Source: a virus (taxonomy: Duplodnaviria > Heunggongvirae > Uroviricota > Caudoviricetes). Taken from it: DNA of 29,751 bases. Under the pieces are notes generated by a model that worked only from the letters and a program-made list of their open reading frames with translations, did no database searches and was not told the origin of the DNA. Each line of letters begins with the position of its first letter. Position 1 is the first letter of the stretch. Where the stretch lies: positions 1 to 29,751 of the IMG/VR virus record IMGVR_UViG_3300037461_000469; one strand, written 5' to 3'. Of the stretch, positions 1,880 through 18,413 are shown piece by piece. The position numbers and the translations under genes are program-made.

Positions 1880-1922
1880 ATATTTTTGACGAATTCGATA
1901 AATAACATAGAGGAGTGAAAAT

Positions 1923-5925: not shown

Positions 5926-7610
5926 TGAGCAGAAGAATATTTCAAAACTGTGATAAAGTCTTCACCATCGAAGATAATGGCGTAATCACAGCAGGAGATA
6001 CACAGGGTTATGATGACTTAGCCCAAGCATCAGGACATAGTGGATACAACAATATCCCTAACCTGAACTTTATCGATGACCGAACAGTTGGTGTATTGAC
6101 AGTACCAACTTTTAAGGATAATGGTGATGGAACAGTAACAATAGGAGCCACAACTGTCCATCTTCGGGACAATCCCAACAGCACGGGGGCCATTATTGAA
6201 TATCCTGTAGCGGGTGCAACATTAGGCCCATTGACAATTAGTGGTATGCAGTATATCACTATTCATTACAACGGCGGCAGTCCTGAATATAGAATAGTAA
6301 ATTATCCAACCCAAACTAGCAGTAGTGATGAGATAATTGTTTTTGTTGTATGGCGTATTGATGATGGAGTCATCGATGAAGTTCATTCTATCGATACGGG
6401 AACTGTCGGTAAAGGACTTGCCAATAAAATGTTTTTTGTCCAAGCATGGACAGACCCTTATAGATTATTTTATGGTGATTATACAACAGCCCGTATTGCT
6501 GAAATCACCACACCTACAAACAGAACAATCACCGTTACAGGCGGCCCCGTTTATGCCCTCAATCAAATAGTAACACTAGGTAATTTTGATTCTTCCGTGG
6601 ATAGAATGACCTTTACTCGACAGGTTGCAGGAGTTTGGACATATTCAGACGAAACAACATACAACAATACCGACTATTGTAATGCTGGAGTCGTAACTCC
6701 TATTCCTGCAAATAAGTATGCAGTTAGATGGTTTTATCGAAGCATCGGAGATGCCAAACAAGTATTTTATCTTTTAGGAAGGAACTATTACAACACTTCC
6801 GATTTAGCAAAAAAAGAAATACCTTACGATACAATTCCTTCTGTTCTTCGCTACCATTGTATGCTTATCGGCAGGTCGGTTGTTCAGGAAGGCGTAGTAG
6901 ATGGTGAAACAGAAACCTATTTTGTTTCAGGTGGCGGTGGAGGCGGCGGTGGTGTTGGTGCATCGGGATTTAGTGGTGAAAGTGGTTACAGCGGCAAGTC
7001 AGGATACTCTGCTTACTCAGGCGTATCAGGCTATTCTGCATACTCAGGAGTTAGCGGTTACTCAGCCTACAGCGGTGTGTCGGGTTACAGCGGCATATCA
7101 GGCTTTTCTGCCTACAGCGGAGTATCGGGATATTCTGCATACTCAGGTATATCGGGGTTTAGCGGATATCGGACAAATATTATTTCCCAAGCCCACACAT
7201 TTGCTGTAGGTGATGTTATTCGGTATGATGGGGGGACGAATACTTATATTAAAGCGCAAGCCGATTCAGTCGTAAATGCCGAAGTTATCGGCATCGTTAC
7301 GGCAGTTCCAAGCGGTACGGTATTTGAATATATTACTCACGGTATAGTATCGGGATTAGTTGGATTGACGGATGGTGATGTATATTTTTTAAGTGAAACT
7401 ACTGCGGGTTTGCTAACGGATGTTTCCCCAACCGATATAGGGGAAGTATCAAAACCCCTATTGTTAGCCACTTCATCAACAGAAGGAATATTTTTTAACT
7501 TTCGTGGTGTGGAAATTGTAGAGGATAGAGGAATTTCGGGATATTCGGGTTATTCAGGCGGCGGTGGAAGTGGTGGAGCAGATATATTACAAGTTCAAAT
7601 ATTTAGTTAG
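5925..7610 (+). CDS. Gly-X-Ser repeat virion/tail-fibre protein
   Basis: 561 aa. GYS/AYS tract at about 6961-7168. Domain QAHTFAVGDVIRY..YIKAQAD..EVIGIV..GDVYFLSETTAG resembles common phage virion domains. Ends GGADILQVQIFS. Confidence 0.75.
   Translation: MSRRIFQNCDKVFTIEDNGVITAGDTQGYDDLAQASGHSGYNNIPNLNFIDDRTVGVLTVPTFKDNGDGTVTIGATTVHLRDNPNSTGAIIEYPVAGATLGPLTISGMQYITIHYNGGSPEYRIVNYPTQTSSSDEIIVFVVWRIDDGVIDEVHSIDTGTVGKGLANKMFFVQAWTDPYRLFYGDYTTARIAEITTPTNRTITVTGGPVYALNQIVTLGNFDSSVDRMTFTRQVAGVWTYSDETTYNNTDYCNAGVVTPIPANKYAVRWFYRSIGDAKQVFYLLGRNYYNTSDLAKKEIPYDTIPSVLRYHCMLIGRSVVQEGVVDGETETYFVSGGGGGGGGVGASGFSGESGYSGKSGYSAYSGVSGYSAYSGVSGYSAYSGVSGYSGISGFSAYSGVSGYSAYSGISGFSGYRTNIISQAHTFAVGDVIRYDGGTNTYIKAQADSVVNAEVIGIVTAVPSGTVFEYITHGIVSGLVGLTDGDVYFLSETTAGLLTDVSPTDIGEVSKPLLLATSSTEGIFFNFRGVEIVEDRGISGYSGYSGGGGSGGADILQVQIFS
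6961..7168 (+). repeat. Gly/Ala-X-Ser coding tandem repeat
   Basis: Repeated SGYSAYSGV-type 9-residue units. Confidence 0.9.
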
Positions 7611-9602: not shown

Positions 9603-10976
9603 ATGGCAGATAAAATGTATTTTATGTCGAGCGATATGTTCGCTATGACTAACCCAGGCCAAAAGTTTGTAACTTGGAATGGTTCAACTTGGATATTGGA
9701 TGAAGAGCGTTGGTTCAATTATTGCGCTTTGGATATGGCGAATCGTGGAGTTAATATGATGAGGTGGTTAGGATGGGGTGTATGGCCTAATTGGAATGAC
9801 CCTAATGGATACAAAACCAATCTCACCCCATTCATTCAGGTTTCAGATGGCGTATTTGACCTTACGAAACGTAACGACAAGTATTGGGAAATTGCAGAGA
9901 AAATGATTCGGATTATGAATTATCCCTCGCAGACAGCAGGGAATACCGCACCAGGTATTACTCTTTGGATTGACCTTTTCTATCAATATACCAATGATAG
10001 TAATGACCAACAATTTTCTCCTTGGCGCAATAACGTTCAAGAAACTAAAGACCTTTACGACATTGAAAATCGTCAGTATGCTTTGGCGTATATGTTGGAA
10101 TGGTTTAAACTCGCAAAAGAAAAAGGCTTAAAGATTATTTTCGGAATGGGTAATGAAATGACGGCAGAAAGTCTAGACTTTTGTTACTTCATTTTGGATA
10201 CAATGGACCAGCAAAGAATTTGGCCTCATGCTTGGGGAATTTGTCCTGATATTCCTTCAAATGGTAATGACCTTTTTAAGAAACTTCCAGGTTATATTTA
10301 TGATAGAGGTTTATTCATGTGGCATCCTCTACGTCAAGACCCTGCTGATAGATGGGACACAAGTATTATTCGTCCAACCCACGGTTGCTGCGGCTGCGTC
10401 AACAATCAAGGGGTGAATGTATTTGAACAGGCTATGCAATATTGGGCTTGTCTTCCTGTTCGTTGGCAAGTAAGCGATGATGGTTGTATGGGTGGTGCTA
10501 CACCACGGCCAGGCGTTGACCAATGGACAGATATGGTAACTAAAATTTGTACTTGGCGAGGAACGGATGCTTTAACCTTAGATTGGGCTGGTATTGATAA
10601 ACCAACGATGGGTATTGAACACCTTCCTGACGATGAACTTTGGGACGATTGCAGAGATGAACAACTCAAAATTTTTGAAGCAATGGCGGCCCCTTATGAA
10701 CAATATGTTGCGCCGTGGGAAAATAAAGGTAAGTGGACAGTTCCTTACATCAAGCCTGAGTGTCAAATTGGAGAAACCAAGACCGAAACTTGTTGGGATG
10801 GCTCGACAATCGTTACTCACACTTGTGAAAATAACCATTGGGTTCCTACCAATGCGACTTGCCCTTCGCAGGATTGCAAGTGCATCTACTACTTGAACAT
10901 TCACGACAGTTGGCTTGGTATCCCGAACTTCATCAAGTGTATCTTGGGGAAGAAAGACCCATACTGCAAAAAGTAA
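9603..10976 (+). CDS. Glycoside-hydrolase-like TIM-barrel protein (GH-A clan/GH5-like) with Cys-rich C-terminal extension
   Basis: SD AGGAGG. MANRGVNMMRW, GITLWIDLF and IIFGMGNEM (NE acid/base-like motif). Trp/Tyr-rich. Eight Cys in the last about 70 aa. Confidence 0.55.
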   Translation: MADKMYFMSSDMFAMTNPGQKFVTWNGSTWILDEERWFNYCALDMANRGVNMMRWLGWGVWPNWNDPNGYKTNLTPFIQVSDGVFDLTKRNDKYWEIAEKMIRIMNYPSQTAGNTAPGITLWIDLFYQYTNDSNDQQFSPWRNNVQETKDLYDIENRQYALAYMLEWFKLAKEKGLKIIFGMGNEMTAESLDFCYFILDTMDQQRIWPHAWGICPDIPSNGNDLFKKLPGYIYDRGLFMWHPLRQDPADRWDTSIIRPTHGCCGCVNNQGVNVFEQAMQYWACLPVRWQVSDDGCMGGATPRPGVDQWTDMVTKICTWRGTDALTLDWAGIDKPTMGIEHLPDDELWDDCRDEQLKIFEAMAAPYEQYVAPWENKGKWTVPYIKPECQIGETKTETCWDGSTIVTHTCENNHWVPTNATCPSQDCKCIYYLNIHDSWLGIPNFIKCILGKKDPYCKK

Positions 10977-11011: not shown

Positions 11012-12394
11012 ATGGATAAAATCTTAAAAAATCCGCAGTTAGTATCGGCAGAATTATTTACTACAGGTTTTTGTAATTTAGACTGCTCCTACTGTTATAT
11101 TGAAAAGACGGACTATCTCAAAAAAATCCACCAAGATATTCTAAAAAAGATACAGACAGGGGAATATATCAAGGAACTCTATTCTCTTTACGGAGACCAA
11201 CTTGAAGCCATCACCTTTTGGGGAACAGAACCTCTGCTTTCTTTAAACTTGTTAGTAGAACAGGTTCCATCCATTCTTCAAGTCTTTCCAAAACTTAATC
11301 ACTTCGGCTTCTCGACAAACTTGATGGTAAATACTCAAAGCATAATCAACTTTATCAAAGCGATTCCAACAGATAGGGATATCAAAATAAAGATTCAGGT
11401 TTCTATTGATGGCCCTCCTGAAATCACAGACATAAATCGTCAAGGGAGTGCAACAGTAACTATCAAGAATAATTTTCTAAATATTGTAAGAATTCTTCAA
11501 CCTATGGAATTGGGAAAGGTAAGTGTAGAGTTCGTACTGAAGCCCACTTGGTCAACTGAAAATCTGATGTGGTTCATCAAGGAACCATCTAGACTCTATT
11601 ACTACTTTTACTTCTTCGATGAGTGGATAGAAAGAGCAAAAACAATTAACAAATCGAAAAATATCTGTCTTAATATTCAAGGTATACCCACGATGGCTGT
11701 TCCCGGCACCTATACTTCAAAAGATGGAAAAATGTTTGCAAAACTCTGTGATGACCTTGCCTTTCTAGCATATAAAAATAAAAAATCTTCTCTCTTCATT
11801 CATCACCGTGGTTTATTTAACTCATATTCCTATAGACTGATACGTTTACTCAATCACAATAGAGAATTTGCTATGAGACCTGAAAATTTTTCTTGTTCGG
11901 CAGGGAGGTCGCAAAACCAATTAGGAGAACACAGAGACTTTCACCTTTGCCATCGTTCTCTTTTTATGAATCATCCTGAATATGTAAATGAGTTGAAGGA
12001 TGAAGGTAATTGGGATTTCCACTTACAGCAGAAGGATAGAATAAACCTGTTAAAGAATAAACACATCGTGAATATCGATGACCAATTAGAAGTAGATAGA
12101 GCGTCATATACATGGCTAGCAGGCCAAGCCTTTTCCAAACATAAGATAGCCTGTGGTCTAGCAAATATTAAGGAACTAGTTTACAGCAAACAAATTGATG
12201 AGATATACGAAGATAAGGATTTGGCTTATTTATTTTCTATCTTTATTAACTATGCCCTAGGATGCCCTGCGGAAAATATACTCCAAACAGGAACCCTTTT
12301 TAGTTCATCATTATCTTTATACAGACTATTCGGTAACGGCGCATTTTCAATAATTTTAAGAGAGGTCAGAAATGAGTTATCAGCAAGAGAATAA
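11012..12394 (+). CDS. Radical SAM protein with reduced (twitch-like) auxiliary domain
   Basis: CNLDCSYC (CxxxCxxC), ITFWGTEP, FSTN, VSIDGP..DINR. C-terminal FSCSAG...FHLCHR. Confidence 0.88.
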   Translation: MDKILKNPQLVSAELFTTGFCNLDCSYCYIEKTDYLKKIHQDILKKIQTGEYIKELYSLYGDQLEAITFWGTEPLLSLNLLVEQVPSILQVFPKLNHFGFSTNLMVNTQSIINFIKAIPTDRDIKIKIQVSIDGPPEITDINRQGSATVTIKNNFLNIVRILQPMELGKVSVEFVLKPTWSTENLMWFIKEPSRLYYYFYFFDEWIERAKTINKSKNICLNIQGIPTMAVPGTYTSKDGKMFAKLCDDLAFLAYKNKKSSLFIHHRGLFNSYSYRLIRLLNHNREFAMRPENFSCSAGRSQNQLGEHRDFHLCHRSLFMNHPEYVNELKDEGNWDFHLQQKDRINLLKNKHIVNIDDQLEVDRASYTWLAGQAFSKHKIACGLANIKELVYSKQIDEIYEDKDLAYLFSIFINYALGCPAENILQTGTLFSSSLSLYRLFGNGAFSIILREVRNELSARE

Positions 12395-13706
12395 TGAAAT
12401 CGTAAAAAACTTTTTAGAACGAACATATTTCAAAGCGTGGAGAGAATGGGAAGCCGCTGAAAAGGATACGGGATATTTTCTCAATAATTACAGGAATCTA
12501 GAGTTCGACCTCTCTGACGTTTGTGAGTTAAAATGCTCATATTGTTACGTTACCAAATTCGGCAAACAATATTTTCCTGACCCCGCACTAAAGAACCCTC
12601 AAACAATCTTCGACAACGCTAAGGTCGTAATGGATTGGTTATGGGAGAACCAAATGAGACCTAAGTTAGAATTGTTCGGGGGCGATGCGCTCAATCAGAA
12701 GGTAGGTTTCGATATCATTAACGAAGTCATAACTAGGGCTGAAGCAGGCAAACCGTCTTTTACAGAAATCATAGTCCCAACCAATATGAATTTTCTTCTC
12801 GATGATGATAAAATAATCCTTGTTGAAGATTTTATTGAAAGAGGAAAGAAGGTAAATTTACCTTTATTTCTAAGTGCTTCTGTTGATGGTATTTATATGG
12901 AAGATAATAGGTCATTCAGAAGCAACAGAAAGAGAGATGAACAATTTTATGACAAACTCTTTAAATTCGCCAAAAAATATCACTTTGGATTTCATCCTAT
13001 GGTATATTCAGAAAACATCGAAAAATGGTGGGATAATTTTTTATGGTTTCAAAGAAAATTTAAAGAATACGATTTACCCCCAACTTCTATGTATCTTCTT
13101 GAAGTAAGAAATGCTGAATGGAACGAAGAACAATGTAAACATCTCTATGAATTTCTGAAAAAACTTACAATGTGGGTAACAAAAAACCTACAACAATACG
13201 AAGACCCTGCAAGAGAGTTCTATAGAAAAAAATGGTCATTTAATACTTTATCTAACCCATTTTCTCATATCGGTAGAGGATTAGGTTGCTCATTACAATC
13301 ATCAATGTATTTAAGAATGGGAGATTTAACTACATTTCCTTGTCATCGTTTAATGTACGATTACTTCAAATTGTTTCGTTTTATAAAAAAGGATGAAAAG
13401 ATTACCGATATTGAAGCAATTACCCCTGAGTTATTATTTGCAACTAACTCCACAAATACTTCCAATTTTCCTGTTTGTGAACATTGTATAGCAAACTCGA
13501 TATGCTCTTATGGATGTTTAGGGGCGCAGTTTGAAAACACAGGCGATATGTTCGTTCCCATTCCTTCAATGTGTAGGATGGAATTCTATAGATTAAAGGG
13601 TATTTTTGAAGGATTCAAGGAGAGTGGTTTATTGGATGGTTTATTAGGTATGGCCCAAGATGAAAGAAAAAAAATAATTTTGAGATTTATGGAGGAAACA
13701 AAATGA
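12372..13706 (+). CDS. Radical SAM/SPASM-domain protein (peptide/protein maturase-like)
   Basis: CELKCSYC, LFGGD, SASVDG..NR. SPASM-like GCSLQ...FPCHR...CEHCIANSICSYGC...SMC. Confidence 0.9.
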   Translation: MSYQQENNEIVKNFLERTYFKAWREWEAAEKDTGYFLNNYRNLEFDLSDVCELKCSYCYVTKFGKQYFPDPALKNPQTIFDNAKVVMDWLWENQMRPKLELFGGDALNQKVGFDIINEVITRAEAGKPSFTEIIVPTNMNFLLDDDKIILVEDFIERGKKVNLPLFLSASVDGIYMEDNRSFRSNRKRDEQFYDKLFKFAKKYHFGFHPMVYSENIEKWWDNFLWFQRKFKEYDLPPTSMYLLEVRNAEWNEEQCKHLYEFLKKLTMWVTKNLQQYEDPAREFYRKKWSFNTLSNPFSHIGRGLGCSLQSSMYLRMGDLTTFPCHRLMYDYFKLFRFIKKDEKITDIEAITPELLFATNSTNTSNFPVCEHCIANSICSYGCLGAQFENTGDMFVPIPSMCRMEFYRLKGIFEGFKESGLLDGLLGMAQDERKKIILRFMEETK

Positions 13707-14191
13707 ATTTAGATGAATTTATCAAGGCTTTACGTAAGTATATAGACACCCCTGATGCGGTATATATACTTGCTAGGAAAAAGGAACAATACTTGAAGGC
13801 TATTGCAATCGTAGAACGGGATGCAAAAATTTGCGACCAACAGGAAAATCCAACATTTGACTCAGCCGATGTAACCCTTCTAGTAGAAACGTTAGAACAT
13901 CTCTTAGCAGTTCTCAATGAACAGCCAATAGGTGAAGACACAACCAAATTTGCCGATGCCTATTCTACTTTGTTATACAATCACAACAAAAATACTCATA
14001 AATTAGAAAAAATTAGTACCCTTTCGCAAACGGTCAACCGCTACGCAAATCTTCGTCTAACCACGGCAGAGTTGATTCAAAATTTGAGAAAGATGAATAA
14101 ACAAATTAGAGACCTCAGTAATCTCTCTTACCAACCCGCCCAATTGAGTAAACATTATTTGGCAAGTTTCGACAAGAAGAATAATAAATAA
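13703..14191 (+). CDS. Hypothetical alpha-helical protein, coupled to the rSAM pair
   Basis: 162 aa, ATGA overlap with the rSAM/SPASM gene, SD GGAGG. Confidence 0.75.
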   Translation: MNLDEFIKALRKYIDTPDAVYILARKKEQYLKAIAIVERDAKICDQQENPTFDSADVTLLVETLEHLLAVLNEQPIGEDTTKFADAYSTLLYNHNKNTHKLEKISTLSQTVNRYANLRLTTAELIQNLRKMNKQIRDLSNLSYQPAQLSKHYLASFDKKNNK

Positions 14192-14208
14192 TATAGAGGA
14201 TTATATCT

Positions 14209-14856
14209 ATGCCTTTTACTTGGACAACACTTCCTGTTACTGCTGGCTCTAGCCAAATCGTATCACCTATAGTTGCTGAAATTCGTACAAATATCAACAC
14301 CGATAGAGGATATGTGGGGTTAGCCGCCATTGGAGCGGCACCAGGGACGTTCCCTACTAATTGGACAAAAACTATCGCCGCAGGAGTAAAGATAGAAGAG
14401 GCAGAATATACAGAAATGAAAACAGCACTAGATGCGGCTTGGGATGCAAATATTTGTACTGCACATCGGGTAACACATTATTCAATCTATCAAAGTACTC
14501 ACGATGCTTCCTATCGAGCAACCCATCAAACCACCTACCTAAGTGGCGATGATGGAACTGTAGAATCTAGCCATTTACATACAAACCGCGCAACTCACTA
14601 CGCAACCTATCAGGGAAGTCATCATACTTCAGATAAAGATACAAATAATACTTCTCACGATGTGGATTATCACGCATCTCATTGGACAACCCATTACGGA
14701 ACAAATCTTGCAAAACATAATGCCTCCTATGATGTTGTATATAATTCAGGCGGGGTAAATAATTTCTACTATGTTAGTGATGAGACAGGATATGATAATG
14801 GTGTGAACAGCGGCGATAATAACACATATGAAGGAGCATATAATCCTATCATTTAA
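14209..14856 (+). CDS. His/Tyr tetrad-repeat protein A (candidate rSAM substrate)
   Basis: 215 aa, SD AGAGGA. Residues 86-181 form 24 consecutive four-residue units starting with H/Y/D/N (one V), most ending in S/T. Confidence 0.8.
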   Translation: MPFTWTTLPVTAGSSQIVSPIVAEIRTNINTDRGYVGLAAIGAAPGTFPTNWTKTIAAGVKIEEAEYTEMKTALDAAWDANICTAHRVTHYSIYQSTHDASYRATHQTTYLSGDDGTVESSHLHTNRATHYATYQGSHHTSDKDTNNTSHDVDYHASHWTTHYGTNLAKHNASYDVVYNSGGVNNFYYVSDETGYDNGVNSGDNNTYEGAYNPII

Positions 14857-14874
14857 TATAGAGGGATAAATAAA

Positions 14875-15447
14875 ATGAGTTATTCAGCAGGATGTAAGGA
14901 TTGGACGCAAACAATTGCTATTGGTGGCGTAGTCGAAGCCGTTGACGTAAACGAATTTAAAACCAATGTGGATTGGATAAAGGATAACCTAGCCTGTCTC
15001 TCCCATAATACCACTTACCGCTCAACACATTATACCGGCGATGACGTAAGCCATAATACAACTTATCGCGGAACTCACGATACAGGAGTTCGAACAACCC
15101 ATGACACTTCAGAAAAATCATCTCACGATTCAACTTATCGGGCAACCCATTACACAGGCGACCTTTCATCCCACTACGAACAAAATTATAATAATCACGA
15201 TACAGGTTACGATGCGACTTATAATGTAACCCATTTACTAATCGCAAACACTGGCGACGATGCAACTTATATTGGTTTTCATTGCGTAGCAGACTTGAAT
15301 GAGTATGATAACGTTCATTGGATGTCTCAGGACGTAGGATATGATTCAACCGTAAGAGGAACTCACTACACAACTTATAACGATACTCATTTAGGAGCCT
15401 ATTTCTCCAAAGATAATACTTCAGATTTGGGTATAGACTCTCCTTAA
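14875..15447 (+). CDS. His/Tyr tetrad-repeat protein B (candidate rSAM substrate)
   Basis: 190 aa, SD GAGGG. All 14 His fall at positions divisible by 4. N-terminal motif shared with 14209..14856. Confidence 0.8.
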   Translation: MSYSAGCKDWTQTIAIGGVVEAVDVNEFKTNVDWIKDNLACLSHNTTYRSTHYTGDDVSHNTTYRGTHDTGVRTTHDTSEKSSHDSTYRATHYTGDLSSHYEQNYNNHDTGYDATYNVTHLLIANTGDDATYIGFHCVADLNEYDNVHWMSQDVGYDSTVRGTHYTTYNDTHLGAYFSKDNTSDLGIDSP

Positions 15448-15469: not shown

Positions 15470-16468
15470 ATGAAAGTTTTTCTGACGAATTTAGATGTCG
15501 GCAGCGGAATTGCTTACGTTGGTGGCGTAATTAAGAATTGGCTTCAGGAATTACCTATCACCCTTTTCGAATACAGAGACCAAACATCGGAATCCGCAAC
15601 CTATGCAGTACTACAAAGAGAAAAGCCTGACGTTATTGTGATAAACGAAATCTACCCTCGGATAATTTCACCTGTTCTTTACTACAAGATGACTTATCCG
15701 CAGACTGTAGTAATCCTTTTCTCGCACTCGCAGAAGGCTCTTTTGTCTGTACAAACTAACGATGCAAGCAAGCACAATCAACATACTGTACTGATGGATT
15801 TGATACACCGTTCTAAAGCCGTTTACGTTCTAGGAGCAAGAACGGAAAAAAATATAGGCAGAGAGATTGTCAAATTCTGTCCTTCTGACCCTGAAATTTT
15901 TTCTAATAAAACAAATTGGAACAAGAGACCTAATCTCTTTTGCATGATAAGTAATATTTACCCTGTAAAAGTATGCGAAGAATTTCTGAAGTTGGTAAAA
16001 AATATTCCTACCTCAATTGATGTGTATGGAGAATTACTTGATAGGTTCATAAGCCAATCTTACAAAGAATTATTCCTAGAGGCCACAAAACATAATCTTT
16101 GTTATAGGGGTGCGCTTTACCAAGAAAAAGTAGGCGAAGTACTCAATCAATACAAGTACATCATTTTTCCGCATCACGGACACGAATCGTTTTTTATGGT
16201 GCTTCATCAAGCCATTATGTGCGGAACCATCCCCATCGTTTTGAATGATAGAAGTGGAAAAGATTTTGATGGCTCGTGGATTGATTGGTGTGATGGGTTA
16301 TATTTTGGGGTAGAAAAAATTGAAGATTTTATTTCTAACTTAATAAAATTATCCACAGATAGGACAGATTTAACACCTGTCTCAAAATTTATTTCAACCG
16401 AAGTGATGAAGAGATTTGACTACTACGCCTTCAAAAAGGAATTTCAAACTTTTTTAGATAAACTATAA
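15470..16468 (+). CDS. GT-B fold glycosyltransferase (GT4-like)
   Basis: PDVIVIN, IDVYG...YRGAL. YKYIIFP..HESFFMVLHQAIMCGTIPIV resembles the GT4 ExFGxxxxEAxxxGxPVI motif. Confidence 0.75.
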   Translation: MKVFLTNLDVGSGIAYVGGVIKNWLQELPITLFEYRDQTSESATYAVLQREKPDVIVINEIYPRIISPVLYYKMTYPQTVVILFSHSQKALLSVQTNDASKHNQHTVLMDLIHRSKAVYVLGARTEKNIGREIVKFCPSDPEIFSNKTNWNKRPNLFCMISNIYPVKVCEEFLKLVKNIPTSIDVYGELLDRFISQSYKELFLEATKHNLCYRGALYQEKVGEVLNQYKYIIFPHHGHESFFMVLHQAIMCGTIPIVLNDRSGKDFDGSWIDWCDGLYFGVEKIEDFISNLIKLSTDRTDLTPVSKFISTEVMKRFDYYAFKKEFQTFLDKL

Positions 16469-18108: not shown

Positions 18109-18413
18109 TTGAATATCCTAGGGTCAGGGTCGAGCCACTCTAGGCAAGCCTTTAAAACCCTGAAAGTAATATTTCCATCTTCATCTTCCACGTAATTCTT
18201 CACCCCAAAGTCAAGACCGTATCCGATGATTTTTATAGATTTACCTTCTTCCTCTATCTTAATGAAGGCTTTCCGAACAGATTCGGGCTTGCATACTCCA
18301 CGTAAAAGGCATTTTGTACAATCTTGTATCTTGACATCTTGCGTATATAATCCCCCGCTTAATTTCAAATACAGTTCAAACTTTTTTGCGAGTTTTTCTA
18401 TCTCCATTTTCAT
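18105..18413 (-). CDS. Small Cys-rich array-family protein
   Basis: KFELYLKLSG..CTKC..C..CLEWL. Confidence 0.75.
   Translation of the reverse strand: MKMEIEKLAKKFELYLKLSGGLYTQDVKIQDCTKCLLRGVCKPESVRKAFIKIEEEGKSIKIIGYGLDFGVKNYVEDEDGNITFRVLKACLEWLDPDPRIFK

What the first reader, a model, noticed from the sequence alone, without database searches (positions are those of the whole stretch)
14209..15447. Two proteins with a strict four-residue His/Tyr register after a shared leader-like motif
Seen: in the 190-aa protein all 14 His sit at positions divisible by 4, with nine in a row every 8 residues (44-108) alternating with Y/D/V/E/N. In the 215-aa protein 24 consecutive tetrads (86-181) start with H (11), Y (7), N (3), D (2) or V (1). 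Both tracts follow WT.TIA.G...E....E.KT..D...D...C..H, and the 215-aa protein has a second degenerate copy of this motif at its N-terminus. Both genes are preceded by an identical TAATATAGAGG (14189-14199 and 14854-14864). Inference: a leader or recognition element plus a core carrying multiple His/Tyr cross-link sites. An alternative is a trimeric beta-helix fibre with an axial His/Tyr metal ladder.
Basis: partly seen in the sequence, partly recalled or inferred. Interest (0 to 1): 0.85.

Follow-up and report, generated by a model that had tools for sequence, protein, structure and literature searches.

The report
Radical-SAM-linked repeat protein pair in phage
Two neighbouring phage proteins with a strict four-residue His/Tyr rhythm belong to a large undescribed family that always comes as a pair and nearly always sits beside two radical SAM enzymes among tail-fibre genes, so the phage probably modifies a fibre-associated protein chemically after it is made.

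Summary
In the 190-aa protein (B) all 14 His fall in one register. In the 215-aa protein (A), 24 consecutive tetrads start with H/Y/N/D/V.

A and B are paralogues in a large unannotated family: 501 clusters in a profile search. Members always occur as an adjacent pair, one with two N-terminal motifs (A-type) and one with a single motif (B-type). In 8 of 10 independent lineages the pair lies beside orthologues of the window's two radical SAM genes. Conversely, 18 of 22 viral loci with the second enzyme carry the pair. His-free members keep the enzymes. A Megasphaera prophage has the same layout with Cys-repeat cores.

The "leader-like" motif is homologous to a three-repeat domain of bacterial surface proteins; 42 of 44 such loci have no radical SAM gene nearby. 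A complex prediction joins A's two helices and B's one into a bundle (score 0.62, best control 0.00).

Best reading: a heterodimeric, tail-fibre-associated pair whose periodic tracts are radical SAM substrates, with unknown chemistry. The closest analogue is the bacterial HXS system. No modification was shown. This scan noted the same family earlier on other DNA (e1-5399986).

The parts
11012..12394 (+). Radical SAM enzyme 1 (460 aa). It has CxxxCxxC at residues 21-28 and only part of the C-terminal Cys set, so it is twitch-like with one auxiliary cluster.
   Evidence: Pfam Radical_SAM and Fer4_12. Weak hits to peptide-maturase models PapB, YhhB, GrrM and HxsB. The profile hits CteB 5wgg, anSME 4k37 and ChlB 9gm3. 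Cys columns. Orthologues in L001, L013, L014, L020, L022, L009 and L010.
12372..13706 (+). Radical SAM enzyme 2 (444 aa) with a full SPASM-type seven-Cys C-terminal set. It overlaps enzyme 1 by 23 nt.
   Evidence: Pfam Radical_SAM below cut-off. NCBIfam PapB 53 bits, SPASM domain 20 bits. Invariant Cys columns. The profile hits 8vpo, CteB and ChlB. Orthologues in 22 IMG/VR loci.
13703..14191 (+). Helical helper protein (162 aa) of no known family. It follows enzyme 2 in most lineages.
   Evidence: No family hit. blastp relatives directly after the enzyme 2 orthologue in L001, L013, L014 and L020, and a same-sized gene in L015.
14189..14199 (+). TAA stop of the helper gene plus the Shine-Dalgarno for A.
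14209..14856 (+). A-type protein (215 aa): two N-terminal motif copies, one invariant Cys, then the tetrad tract.
14215..14316 (+). A, motif copy 1 (aa 3-36; helix 19-35).
   Evidence: AF2 pLDDT 73-91. hhalign to the bacterial three-repeat domain. Interface residues 21-36.
14356..14463 (+). A, motif copy 2 (aa 50-85; helix 64-80). It ends in D-x-N-x-C83-x-x-H86; the Cys83 codon is 14455-14457.
   Evidence: C83 and W5 are invariant in 51 A-type sequences. Interface residues 62-83.
14464..14751 (+). A, tetrad tract (aa 86-181, 24 tetrads).
   Evidence: Family-wide tetrad composition.
14854..14864 (+). TAA stop of A plus the Shine-Dalgarno for B.
14875..15447 (+). B-type protein (190 aa): one motif copy (aa 9-43; the Cys41 codon is 14995-14997), then the tetrad tract (aa 44-176, nt 15004-15402).
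   Evidence: Interface residues 14-41.
15470..16468 (+). GT-B (GT4-like) glycosyltransferase (332 aa), a frequent but not constant member of the cassette.
   Evidence: Pfam Glycos_transf_1, 33 bits. Relatives inside the cassette in L001, L014 and L009.
9603..10976 (+). Unknown 457-aa protein directly upstream. Its membership in the cassette is uncertain.
   Evidence: No family hit. Conserved only in the close relative L001 at 79% identity.

Best explanation
A (215 aa) and B (190 aa) are the two subunits of a phage-encoded, tail-fibre-associated protein pair.

Predicted: their N-terminal motifs, two copies in A and one in B, together rebuild a three-repeat helical domain that bacterial surface proteins carry in a single chain. 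This joins A and B into a heterodimer, and two periodic tracts emerge from it side by side.

Inferred from conserved gene neighbourhood: each tract is a run of autonomous four-residue units. Positions 1 and 2 are large (H/Y/V/D/N, then D/N/Y). Positions 3 and 4 are small (S/A/T/G, then T/S/G). The tracts are the substrates of the two adjacent radical SAM enzymes, one SPASM-type and one twitch-like, working with the small helical helper.

Inferred by analogy with peptide-modifying radical SAM/SPASM enzymes (CteB, PapB, three-residue cyclophane formers, HxsB/C): these enzymes abstract a hydrogen atom and close short side-chain cross-links repeatedly along the tract. This would staple it into a stiff, protease-resistant rod.

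Inferred: the cassette's glycosyltransferase probably adds sugars to the many Ser/Thr.

The dense His ladder is a speciality of this phage clade and not the universal target. The chemistry of the modification is unknown.
For: 1. Register and paralogy.

2. Family size: 501 clusters at E<=1e-3 and 68 at E<=1e-10. The tetrad rule holds over 1891 tetrads in 90 proteins.

3. A-type then B-type are adjacent, 1:1, in every locus read: window, L001, L002, L008, L009 (twice), L010, L013, L014, L015, L020, L021, L022.

4. Orthologues of both radical SAM genes, and usually the helper, are contiguous with the pair in 8 of 10 independent lineages. These include T4-like giant phages and SU10-like podophages. 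The two lineages without them are short contigs.

5. Reverse test: all 22 IMG/VR loci with an enzyme 2 orthologue have enzyme 1 next to it, and 18 of the 22 have the A/B pair within 8 kb.

6. Members with zero to four His still carry both enzymes (L020, L022).

7. The Megasphaera sueciensis prophage L066 has tail fibre, radical SAM, a one-motif protein, a two-motif protein and a second radical SAM. Its cores are Cys repeats, a classic radical SAM substrate type.

8. A+B complex prediction: score 0.62, best of 3 controls 0.00.
- That mark was reached by 58 of 80 solved complexes and 2 of 110 mismatched pairs. These counts hold only roughly here, because my own alignments were used.
- The runs agree in at least 68% of contacts, and partner pLDDT is at least 54.
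- The interface is A 21-36 and 62-83 with B 14-41.
- The model supports binding but does not show it. Because the three helices are homologous, likeness may contribute to the score.

9. hhalign of the bacterial three-repeat domain against A's N-terminus: 99.1%, E 6e-19.

10. Gene position among collagen-like tail-fibre and LamG genes. A-type modules are fused behind LamG or discoidin-like domains in P0011 and P0039.
Against: - No modification has been observed. The link to the enzymes rests on gene neighbourhood alone.
- The enzymes match every characterised maturase model far below its cut-off, so no chemistry can be assigned.
- About 40% of tetrads start with V/D/N/E, and position 3 is Gly in 12%. 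A uniform aromatic-to-C-beta cyclophane in every tetrad is therefore impossible.
- AF2 models the tract as one long alpha helix at pLDDT 55-76. That helix is neither a peptide-like substrate nor credible given the T/S/G/N/D composition.
- 4 of 22 enzyme 2 loci show no recognisable pair.
- No evidence shows that A or B is in the virion. No relative exists in GenBank phage records.
Confidence: 0.6

Rival explanations
1. The radical SAM enzymes act only on the junction, for example a thioether from the invariant Cys of A (D-x-N-x-C-x-x-H) to a nearby residue or to B. The tetrad tract is then a purely structural, unmodified spacer.
For: - C83 is one of only two invariant residues in 51 A-type sequences, while His is not conserved.
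- The best NCBIfam hit for both enzymes is the thioether former PapB. The nearest solved relatives include the thioether former CteB.
- The Cys lies in the predicted A-B interface (A 81-83 with B 38-41).
- The prophage variant has Cys-rich cores with a PapB-like enzyme at 105 bits.
Against: - Many B-type proteins lack the junction Cys (L008, L009, L015).
- Two enzymes plus a helper for a single bond is lavish.
- This reading leaves unexplained why the tract keeps an exact 4-residue unit across 501 clusters.
Confidence: 0.15
2. A and B are unmodified fibre subunits whose in-register His/Tyr/Asp/Asn side chains form a metal-binding or hydrogen-bonded ladder. The radical SAM enzymes serve another substrate, such as the neighbouring tail fibres.
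For: - Tail-fibre neighbourhood.
- His is invariant every 8 residues within the window's clade.
- His positions of A and B are in opposite phase from the junction in that clade: 13 of 16 levels have exactly one His.
- From my own knowledge, T4 gp37 has a His-coordinated iron column.
Against: - His is dispensable family-wide, while the enzymes are retained.
- The pair is contiguous with the enzymes whatever the fibre genes nearby.
- A strict A+B pair and the 2+1 bundle give two tracts, not three.
- Indels of 4 residues do not fit a beta-helix with longer coils.
- There is no HxH motif array.
Confidence: 0.12
3. This is a classical RiPP. The N-terminal motif is a leader, and the tract is a core that is cross-linked, cleaved off and released as a small bioactive peptide.
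For: - Precursor-like genes sit next to radical SAM/SPASM maturase-like genes, and paralogous precursors are common in RiPP clusters.
- A conserved N-terminal region is followed by a variable core.
Against: - No leader peptidase, transporter or RRE/PqqD-like domain was found in the cassette genes I scanned.
- The cores are 100-250 residues long.
- A-type modules are fused behind 200-900-residue LamG or discoidin-like domains.
- The motif is a widespread structural domain without radical SAM neighbours and is the predicted A-B interface.
Confidence: 0.08

Closest known systems
HXS anti-phage system of bacteria: HxsA effector with His-Xaa-Ser repeats, radical SAM enzymes HxsB and HxsC, small protein HxsD (Li et al., Nat Commun 2026, PMC13128918)
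   Same: - Two adjacent radical SAM enzymes, a small accessory protein and a protein-sized (about 200 aa) substrate with repeated His-x-Ser/Thr motifs.
- The mapped site SHRSS resembles the window's S/T-H-x-S/T-S/T/G units (SHNTT, THDTS, SHDST).
- The substrate is a functional protein, not a released small peptide.
   Different: - HXS is bacterial and defensive. HxsA is exported, cleaved and anchored to peptidoglycan, and has five repeats.
- This cassette is phage-borne among tail-fibre genes, with 24-33 tetrads in each of two paired substrates.
- There is no specific homology. HxsB scores 33 bits against a 370-bit cut-off. HxsC is not among the 25 rows shown for enzyme 1 nor among all 22 for enzyme 2. 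HxsD and HxsA give no hit.
CXXX-repeat radical SAM target system (NCBIfam TIGR04114 target, TIGR04115 maturase; Pfam PF27846), described only by genome mining as far as I know
   Same: - A four-residue repeat of a candidate target residue next to a radical SAM maturase.
- An Atlas cluster carrying PF27846 (83% viral) is among the nearest feature neighbours of A, at 0.80. That is a lead only.
- A Megasphaera prophage has the same one-motif and two-motif pair with Cys-repeat cores.
   Different: - The window's proteins have a single junction Cys and H/Y/D/N/V at the repeat position.
- TIGR04115 scores 31.8 bits against a 350-bit cut-off.
- No hit of A or B to any NCBIfam or Pfam model.
- The prophage proteins also do not reach any NCBIfam model.
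Triceptides made by three-residue cyclophane-forming radical SAM/SPASM enzymes (XyeB, GrrM/OscB, FxsB, YhhB, ChlB)
   Same: - Repeated short units with an aromatic residue (His or Tyr allowed) and a cross-link partner two residues on.
- ChlB is the only single-sequence PDB hit of enzyme 1 (E 1.8e-5).
- YhhB and GrrM are among enzyme 1's better NCBIfam hits.
   Different: - Triceptides are small leader-dependent peptides.
- Here only about half of the tetrads start with an aromatic residue, and position 3 is often Gly or Ala.
- All family scores lie far below the cut-offs.
Phage fibres with axial metal sites (T4 gp37 tip with His-coordinated iron; cited from my own knowledge, not checked here)
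   Same: A fibre-module location and regularly spaced His residues.
   Different: - gp37 uses HxH motifs in a homotrimer.
- Here His recurs every 8 residues in a two-protein pair. His is not conserved in the family, and radical SAM genes are linked.

Membership tests
HXS system (HxsA-D) | Radical SAM pair matching the HxsB (TIGR03978) and HxsC (TIGR03977) models | tested here: not met
   Enzyme 1 scores 33.3 bits and enzyme 2 scores 22.4 bits against HxsB, whose cut-off is 370. HxsC is not among the 25 rows shown for enzyme 1 (of 54 families) nor among all 22 for enzyme 2.
HXS system (HxsA-D) | HxsD (TIGR03976) accessory protein and HxsA (TIGR03979) repeat protein | tested here: not met
   No hit for the helper, A or B at E<=1.
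HXS system (HxsA-D) | Architecture: two adjacent radical SAM genes, a small protein and a protein-sized His-repeat substrate | tested here: met
   Gene order in the window, compared with the description in PMC13128918.
CXXX-repeat radical SAM target system | Maturase matching TIGR04115 | tested here: not met
   Enzyme 1 scores 31.8 bits and enzyme 2 scores 11.5 bits, against a cut-off of 350.
CXXX-repeat radical SAM target system | Target peptide with Cys at every fourth residue | tested here: not met
   A has one Cys and B has three. The period of four is present but carried by H/Y/D/N/V. No NCBIfam or Pfam hit.
Triceptides / three-residue cyclophane formers | Enzyme in the XyeB, GrrM, FxsB, YhhB or AmcB families | tested here: not met
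   Best scores are YhhB 45 bits (cut-off 445), GrrM 42 (cut-off 310), AmcB 35 (cut-off 425) and XyeB 20 (cut-off 450).
Triceptides / three-residue cyclophane formers | Aromatic-x-x motif with a C-beta-bearing third residue | tested here: inconclusive
   Position 1 is H or Y in 50% of 1891 tetrads. Position 3 is S/A/T in 55% and Gly in 12%.
Triceptides / three-residue cyclophane formers | Cyclophane bond shown by MS/NMR | not testable with these tools
   This needs expression and mass spectrometry.
Classical RiPP precursor | Leader removed by a cluster-encoded peptidase or exporter, with an RRE (PqqD-like) recognition domain | tested here: not met
   No peptidase, transporter or PqqD-like hit in the cassette genes by Pfam, PHROGs or NCBIfam. 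The motif is a general structural domain.
Homotrimeric beta-helix fibre with metal ladder | HxH or equivalent inward His triads in a homotrimer | tested here: not met
   His lies at i and i+8. The only HxH is HLH at 122-124 of A. The proteins occur as a strict A+B pair with a 2+1 predicted bundle. Homotrimer folding was not run.
Bacterial three-repeat helical domain (unnamed; alignment A6) | Profile-level homology of the N-terminal motif | tested here: met
   hhalign 99.1%, E 6e-19, 67 columns, 42% identity. Neither Pfam family nor PDB relative.

The most novel reading that the evidence does not exclude
Many uncultivated phages, both T4-like giants and SU10-like podophages, build part of their host-contact apparatus from a heterodimeric rod. 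Two dedicated radical SAM enzymes cross-link its backbone at almost every fourth residue, and it may then be glycosylated. That would be the first radical-SAM-modified virion structural protein and a protein-scale relative of RiPP chemistry. The residue carried by the repeat (His/Tyr, Asp/Asn or Cys) differs between lineages.
Probability: 0.35. Interest if true: 0.88.

Novelty: new variant of a known kind. Interest (0 to 1): 0.78.

Why it matters
Radical SAM/SPASM maturases are known for small ribosomal peptides and a few bacterial proteins, such as quinohemoprotein amine dehydrogenase and HxsA. A widespread phage cassette that applies such enzymes to a pair of 150-300-residue repeat proteins beside tail-fibre genes would extend this chemistry to virus particles.

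It would also give hundreds of natural substrate variants with a fixed four-residue unit, and suggest a new way to make rigid, protease-resistant fibres.

The split of a three-repeat domain into a 2+1 heterodimer is a neat, testable assembly principle. A cultivable entry point exists: the prophage of Megasphaera sueciensis TMW 2.2488, which carries the Cys-core version.

Tried and rejected
- DNA similarity to GenBank phages: none. tblastn of A, enzyme 2 and two family members against phage records: none.
- Pfam, PHROGs, NCBIfam and PDB sequence searches of A, B and their family alignments: no family.
- Foldseek of the A model against BFVD and PDB: nothing below E 0.4.
- AF2 monomers gave only a low-confidence long helix for the tract. 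I do not rely on it.
- The broad alignment A2 was too diverse for the search for related loci.
- Literature searches for phage radical SAM fibre modification or CXXX repeats: nothing relevant.
- Atlas search of the helper: nothing usable.
- An A-B disulfide through the junction Cys is rejected as a general feature, because many B-type proteins lack that Cys.
- Complementary His phasing between A and B holds only in the window's clade, so it is not a family rule.
- The last context look-up (P0149) hit a 1.1-kb contig and told nothing.
- Homotrimer folding was not run. The single complex job went to A+B.

Full report
**Observation**

The window encodes two adjacent proteins on the + strand: A (14209-14856, 215 aa) and B (14875-15447, 190 aa).

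- In B, all 14 His lie at positions divisible by four. Nine in a row are spaced eight apart (44-108).
- In A, the 24 tetrads 86-181 begin with H 11, Y 7, N 3, D 2 and V 1.
- The chance of 14 of 14 His sharing one register is about 1.5e-8.
- A and B are paralogues: 33% identity, E 7e-17.
- No DNA tandem repeat underlies the rhythm.
- Indels between homologues come in multiples of four residues. The four-residue unit is therefore selected at the protein level and behaves as an autonomous unit.
- TAATATAGAGG before both genes is the upstream TAA stop plus a GAGG ribosome-binding site. Near copies precede other genes.

**Surroundings**

- Upstream lie collagen-like tail-fibre genes and a LamG-type gene.
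- Next comes an unknown 457-aa gene.
- Two overlapping radical SAM genes follow (11012-12394 and 12372-13706), then a 162-aa helical protein, A, B and a GT-B glycosyltransferase.
- Enzyme 2 keeps the seven-Cys SPASM set. Enzyme 1 keeps only part of it.
- Both enzymes match peptide-maturase models only weakly: PapB, YhhB, GrrM, QhpD-type, HxsB.
- Their nearest solved relatives are CteB, 8vpo, anSME and ChlB.
- They therefore belong to the peptide/protein-modifying SPASM/twitch group, but no chemistry can be assigned.
- The record is a 168.8-kb viral contig, 74% complete, with only this one A/B pair.

**Family**

- Word-based searches found only five close relatives.
- A profile search over 1.84 billion representatives found 501 clusters at E<=1e-3 and 68 at E<=1e-10.
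- The members have no Pfam, NCBIfam, PHROG or PDB relative.
- They fall into A-type (two N-terminal motifs) and B-type (one motif).
- Over 1891 tetrads in 90 proteins:
  - position 1 is H 29, Y 21, V 12, D 11, N 10, E 5 (%). This position is biased by how I followed the register;
  - position 2 is D 20, N 19, Y 18;
  - position 3 is S 27, A 14, T 14, G 12;
  - position 4 is T 33, S 19, G 16.
- The unit is therefore two large residues followed by two small ones.
- His is not conserved. Several members have zero to four His.
- In A-type proteins only W5 and the junction Cys (C83) are invariant. Many B-type proteins lack that Cys.

**Gene neighbourhood**

Every locus read has an A-type gene directly followed by a B-type gene.

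| Locus | Gene order |
|---|---|
| window, L001 | enzyme 1, enzyme 2, helper, A, B, GT |
| L013 | fibre, A fused behind a 900-residue discoidin-like protein, B, enzyme 1, enzyme 2, helper |
| L014 | fibre, LamG-A fusion, B, enzyme 1, enzyme 2, helper, GT |
| L015 | enzyme 2, helper, one gene, A, B |
| L009 | fibre, enzyme 2-like, GT, enzyme 1-like, B, A, B, A |
| L010 | enzyme 1-like, two small genes, A, B |
| L020, L022 (SU10-like podophages) | adaptor, fibre, A, B, enzyme 1, enzyme 2 (helper also in L020) |

- In L013 the called enzyme 1 gene lacked CxxxCxxC only because its start was mis-set.
- L008 and L021 are short contigs, so the flanks that could hold the enzymes are missing.
- L022's A has no His at all, and L020's has four. 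Both loci keep the two enzymes.
- Reverse test: all 22 IMG/VR loci with a clear enzyme 2 orthologue have enzyme 1 beside it, and 18 have the pair within 8 kb.
- Two of the four exceptions show other S/N/G-rich periodic ORFs in the same place.

This two-way linkage across different phage types is the main evidence that the pair and the enzymes form one functional unit.

**The N-terminal motif**

- Some hits of the profile search carry three tandem motif copies and no tetrad tract.
- An alignment of these (A6) found 44 loci in bacterial genomes, mostly at the C-terminus of large surface proteins of Acidobacteriota, Rokubacteria, Patescibacteria and others.
- 42 of the 44 have no homologue of either enzyme within 6 kb.
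- hhalign links A6 to the N-terminus of A-type proteins at 99.1%, E 6e-19.
- The motif is therefore a general structural repeat that normally comes in threes, not a dedicated leader.
- A has two copies and B has one, so I asked whether A and B rebuild the triplet. The complex prediction passed:
  - score 0.62, best of 3 controls 0.00;
  - the mark was reached by 58 of 80 solved complexes and 2 of 110 mismatched pairs. These counts are only rough here, because my own alignments were used;
  - the runs agree in at least 68% of contacts, and partner pLDDT is at least 54;
  - the confident interface is A 21-36 and 62-83 against B 14-41, which is the three motif helices.
- The model supports binding and does not prove it. 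Homology among the three helices may help the score.

**The two exceptions among the bacterial loci**

L066 is in the Megasphaera sueciensis chromosome, and L067 in an Acidaminococcaceae MAG.

- L066 has a tail-fibre gene, a PapB-like radical SAM gene (105 bits), a 99-aa protein with one motif, a 134-aa protein with two motifs, two further genes and a second radical SAM gene.
- L067 carries the same 99-aa and 134-aa pair between two radical SAM-like ORFs. I did not list its other genes.
- In both, the cores are Cys repeats (CQSxx, CQxC).
- This is the same architecture with a classic radical SAM substrate type. It supports the view that the periodic core is what the enzymes work on.
- It also links the family loosely to the CXXX-repeat target systems, a lead that the Atlas gave as well (0.80, below significance).
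- Neither set of proteins reaches the NCBIfam models.

**Structure**

- AF2 monomers give confident motif helices (pLDDT 85-91).
- The tract comes out as a single long alpha helix at pLDDT 55-76.
- Given the T/S/G/N/D-rich composition I do not trust the helix.
- Fold searches found nothing.

**Closest known**

- The bacterial HXS defence system has the same parts list: two adjacent radical SAM enzymes, a small partner and a roughly 200-aa protein with His-x-Ser repeats. A +8 Da change was mapped to SHRSS (PMC13128918).
- The window's units (SHNTT, THDTS, SHDST) resemble that site. However, no component reaches the Hxs models, and the setting is a phage fibre module.
- I found no paper on such a phage cassette and no relative in GenBank phage records.
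- An earlier report of this scan on another genome (e1-5399986) reached a similar reading. That is not independent evidence.

**Verdict**

- The substrate idea is well supported by linkage.
- The leader idea is weakened, because the motif is an assembly domain.
- The homotrimeric metal-ladder idea is unsupported.
- Whether A and B are modified, how, and whether they sit in the virion remain to be shown by experiment.

Noticed in passing
L020:12816-15167: The enzyme 2 orthologue of an SU10-like podophage is 783 aa. An intein with LAGLIDADG-type blocks sits directly after the CxxxCxxC motif (CDLACKYC|VGKGT...). The flanks align to the window's enzyme 2 residues 1-58 and 58-441.
   Followed up: partly
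L002:4790-5407 and 6885-7568: In a close relative of the window's phage, two GIY-YIG/NUMOD3 homing-endonuclease genes lie in the radical SAM gene region of the cassette.
   Followed up: no
L066:2469-3092, 5971-6270, 6280-6684: Three proteins of the Megasphaera prophage end in the same C-terminal motif, C(N/D)CDCGDD. They are a 207-aa structural-looking protein and both Cys-repeat proteins.
   Followed up: no
L008:1794-2630; L009:898-1911; L013:58-1128; L014:2-277; L066:3436-4869; L080:5852-6625: Tail-fibre genes just upstream of the cassette share a conserved C-terminal domain (..VYNDxADF..GKCY..CQMGVIGI..GWVLAYVD..PLTN..G.LT..RHWVKV). No Pfam family was seen for the one member I scanned (L066).
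   Followed up: no
window 14464-14751 versus 15004-15402: Counted from the junction Cys, His residues of A and B are in opposite phase. 13 of 16 levels have exactly one His, against 2-3 when shifted by one tetrad. This holds in the window, L001 and L002 but not in other lineages.
   Followed up: yes
L082, L083, L084, L086, L087: Radical SAM orthologues in these IMG/VR loci are split into several pieces by in-frame stops under table 11. This could reflect a recoded stop codon in these phages, or broken genes.
   Followed up: no
L085:5920-6603: Where the A/B pair would be expected, just upstream of enzyme 1, lies an ORF with a five-residue SNGxx rhythm after a C-x-C-x-x-H start. It may be another core type.
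   Followed up: no
window 9603-10976: A 457-aa protein with no family hit sits directly upstream of the radical SAM pair. It is conserved at 79% identity in L001 but was not seen in more distant cassettes.
   Followed up: partly
window 1903-1913 and 18251-18261 (-): One-mismatch copies of the TAA-TATAGAGG stop-plus-ribosome-site junction occur at other places in the window (four matches against 0.72 expected).
   Followed up: partly
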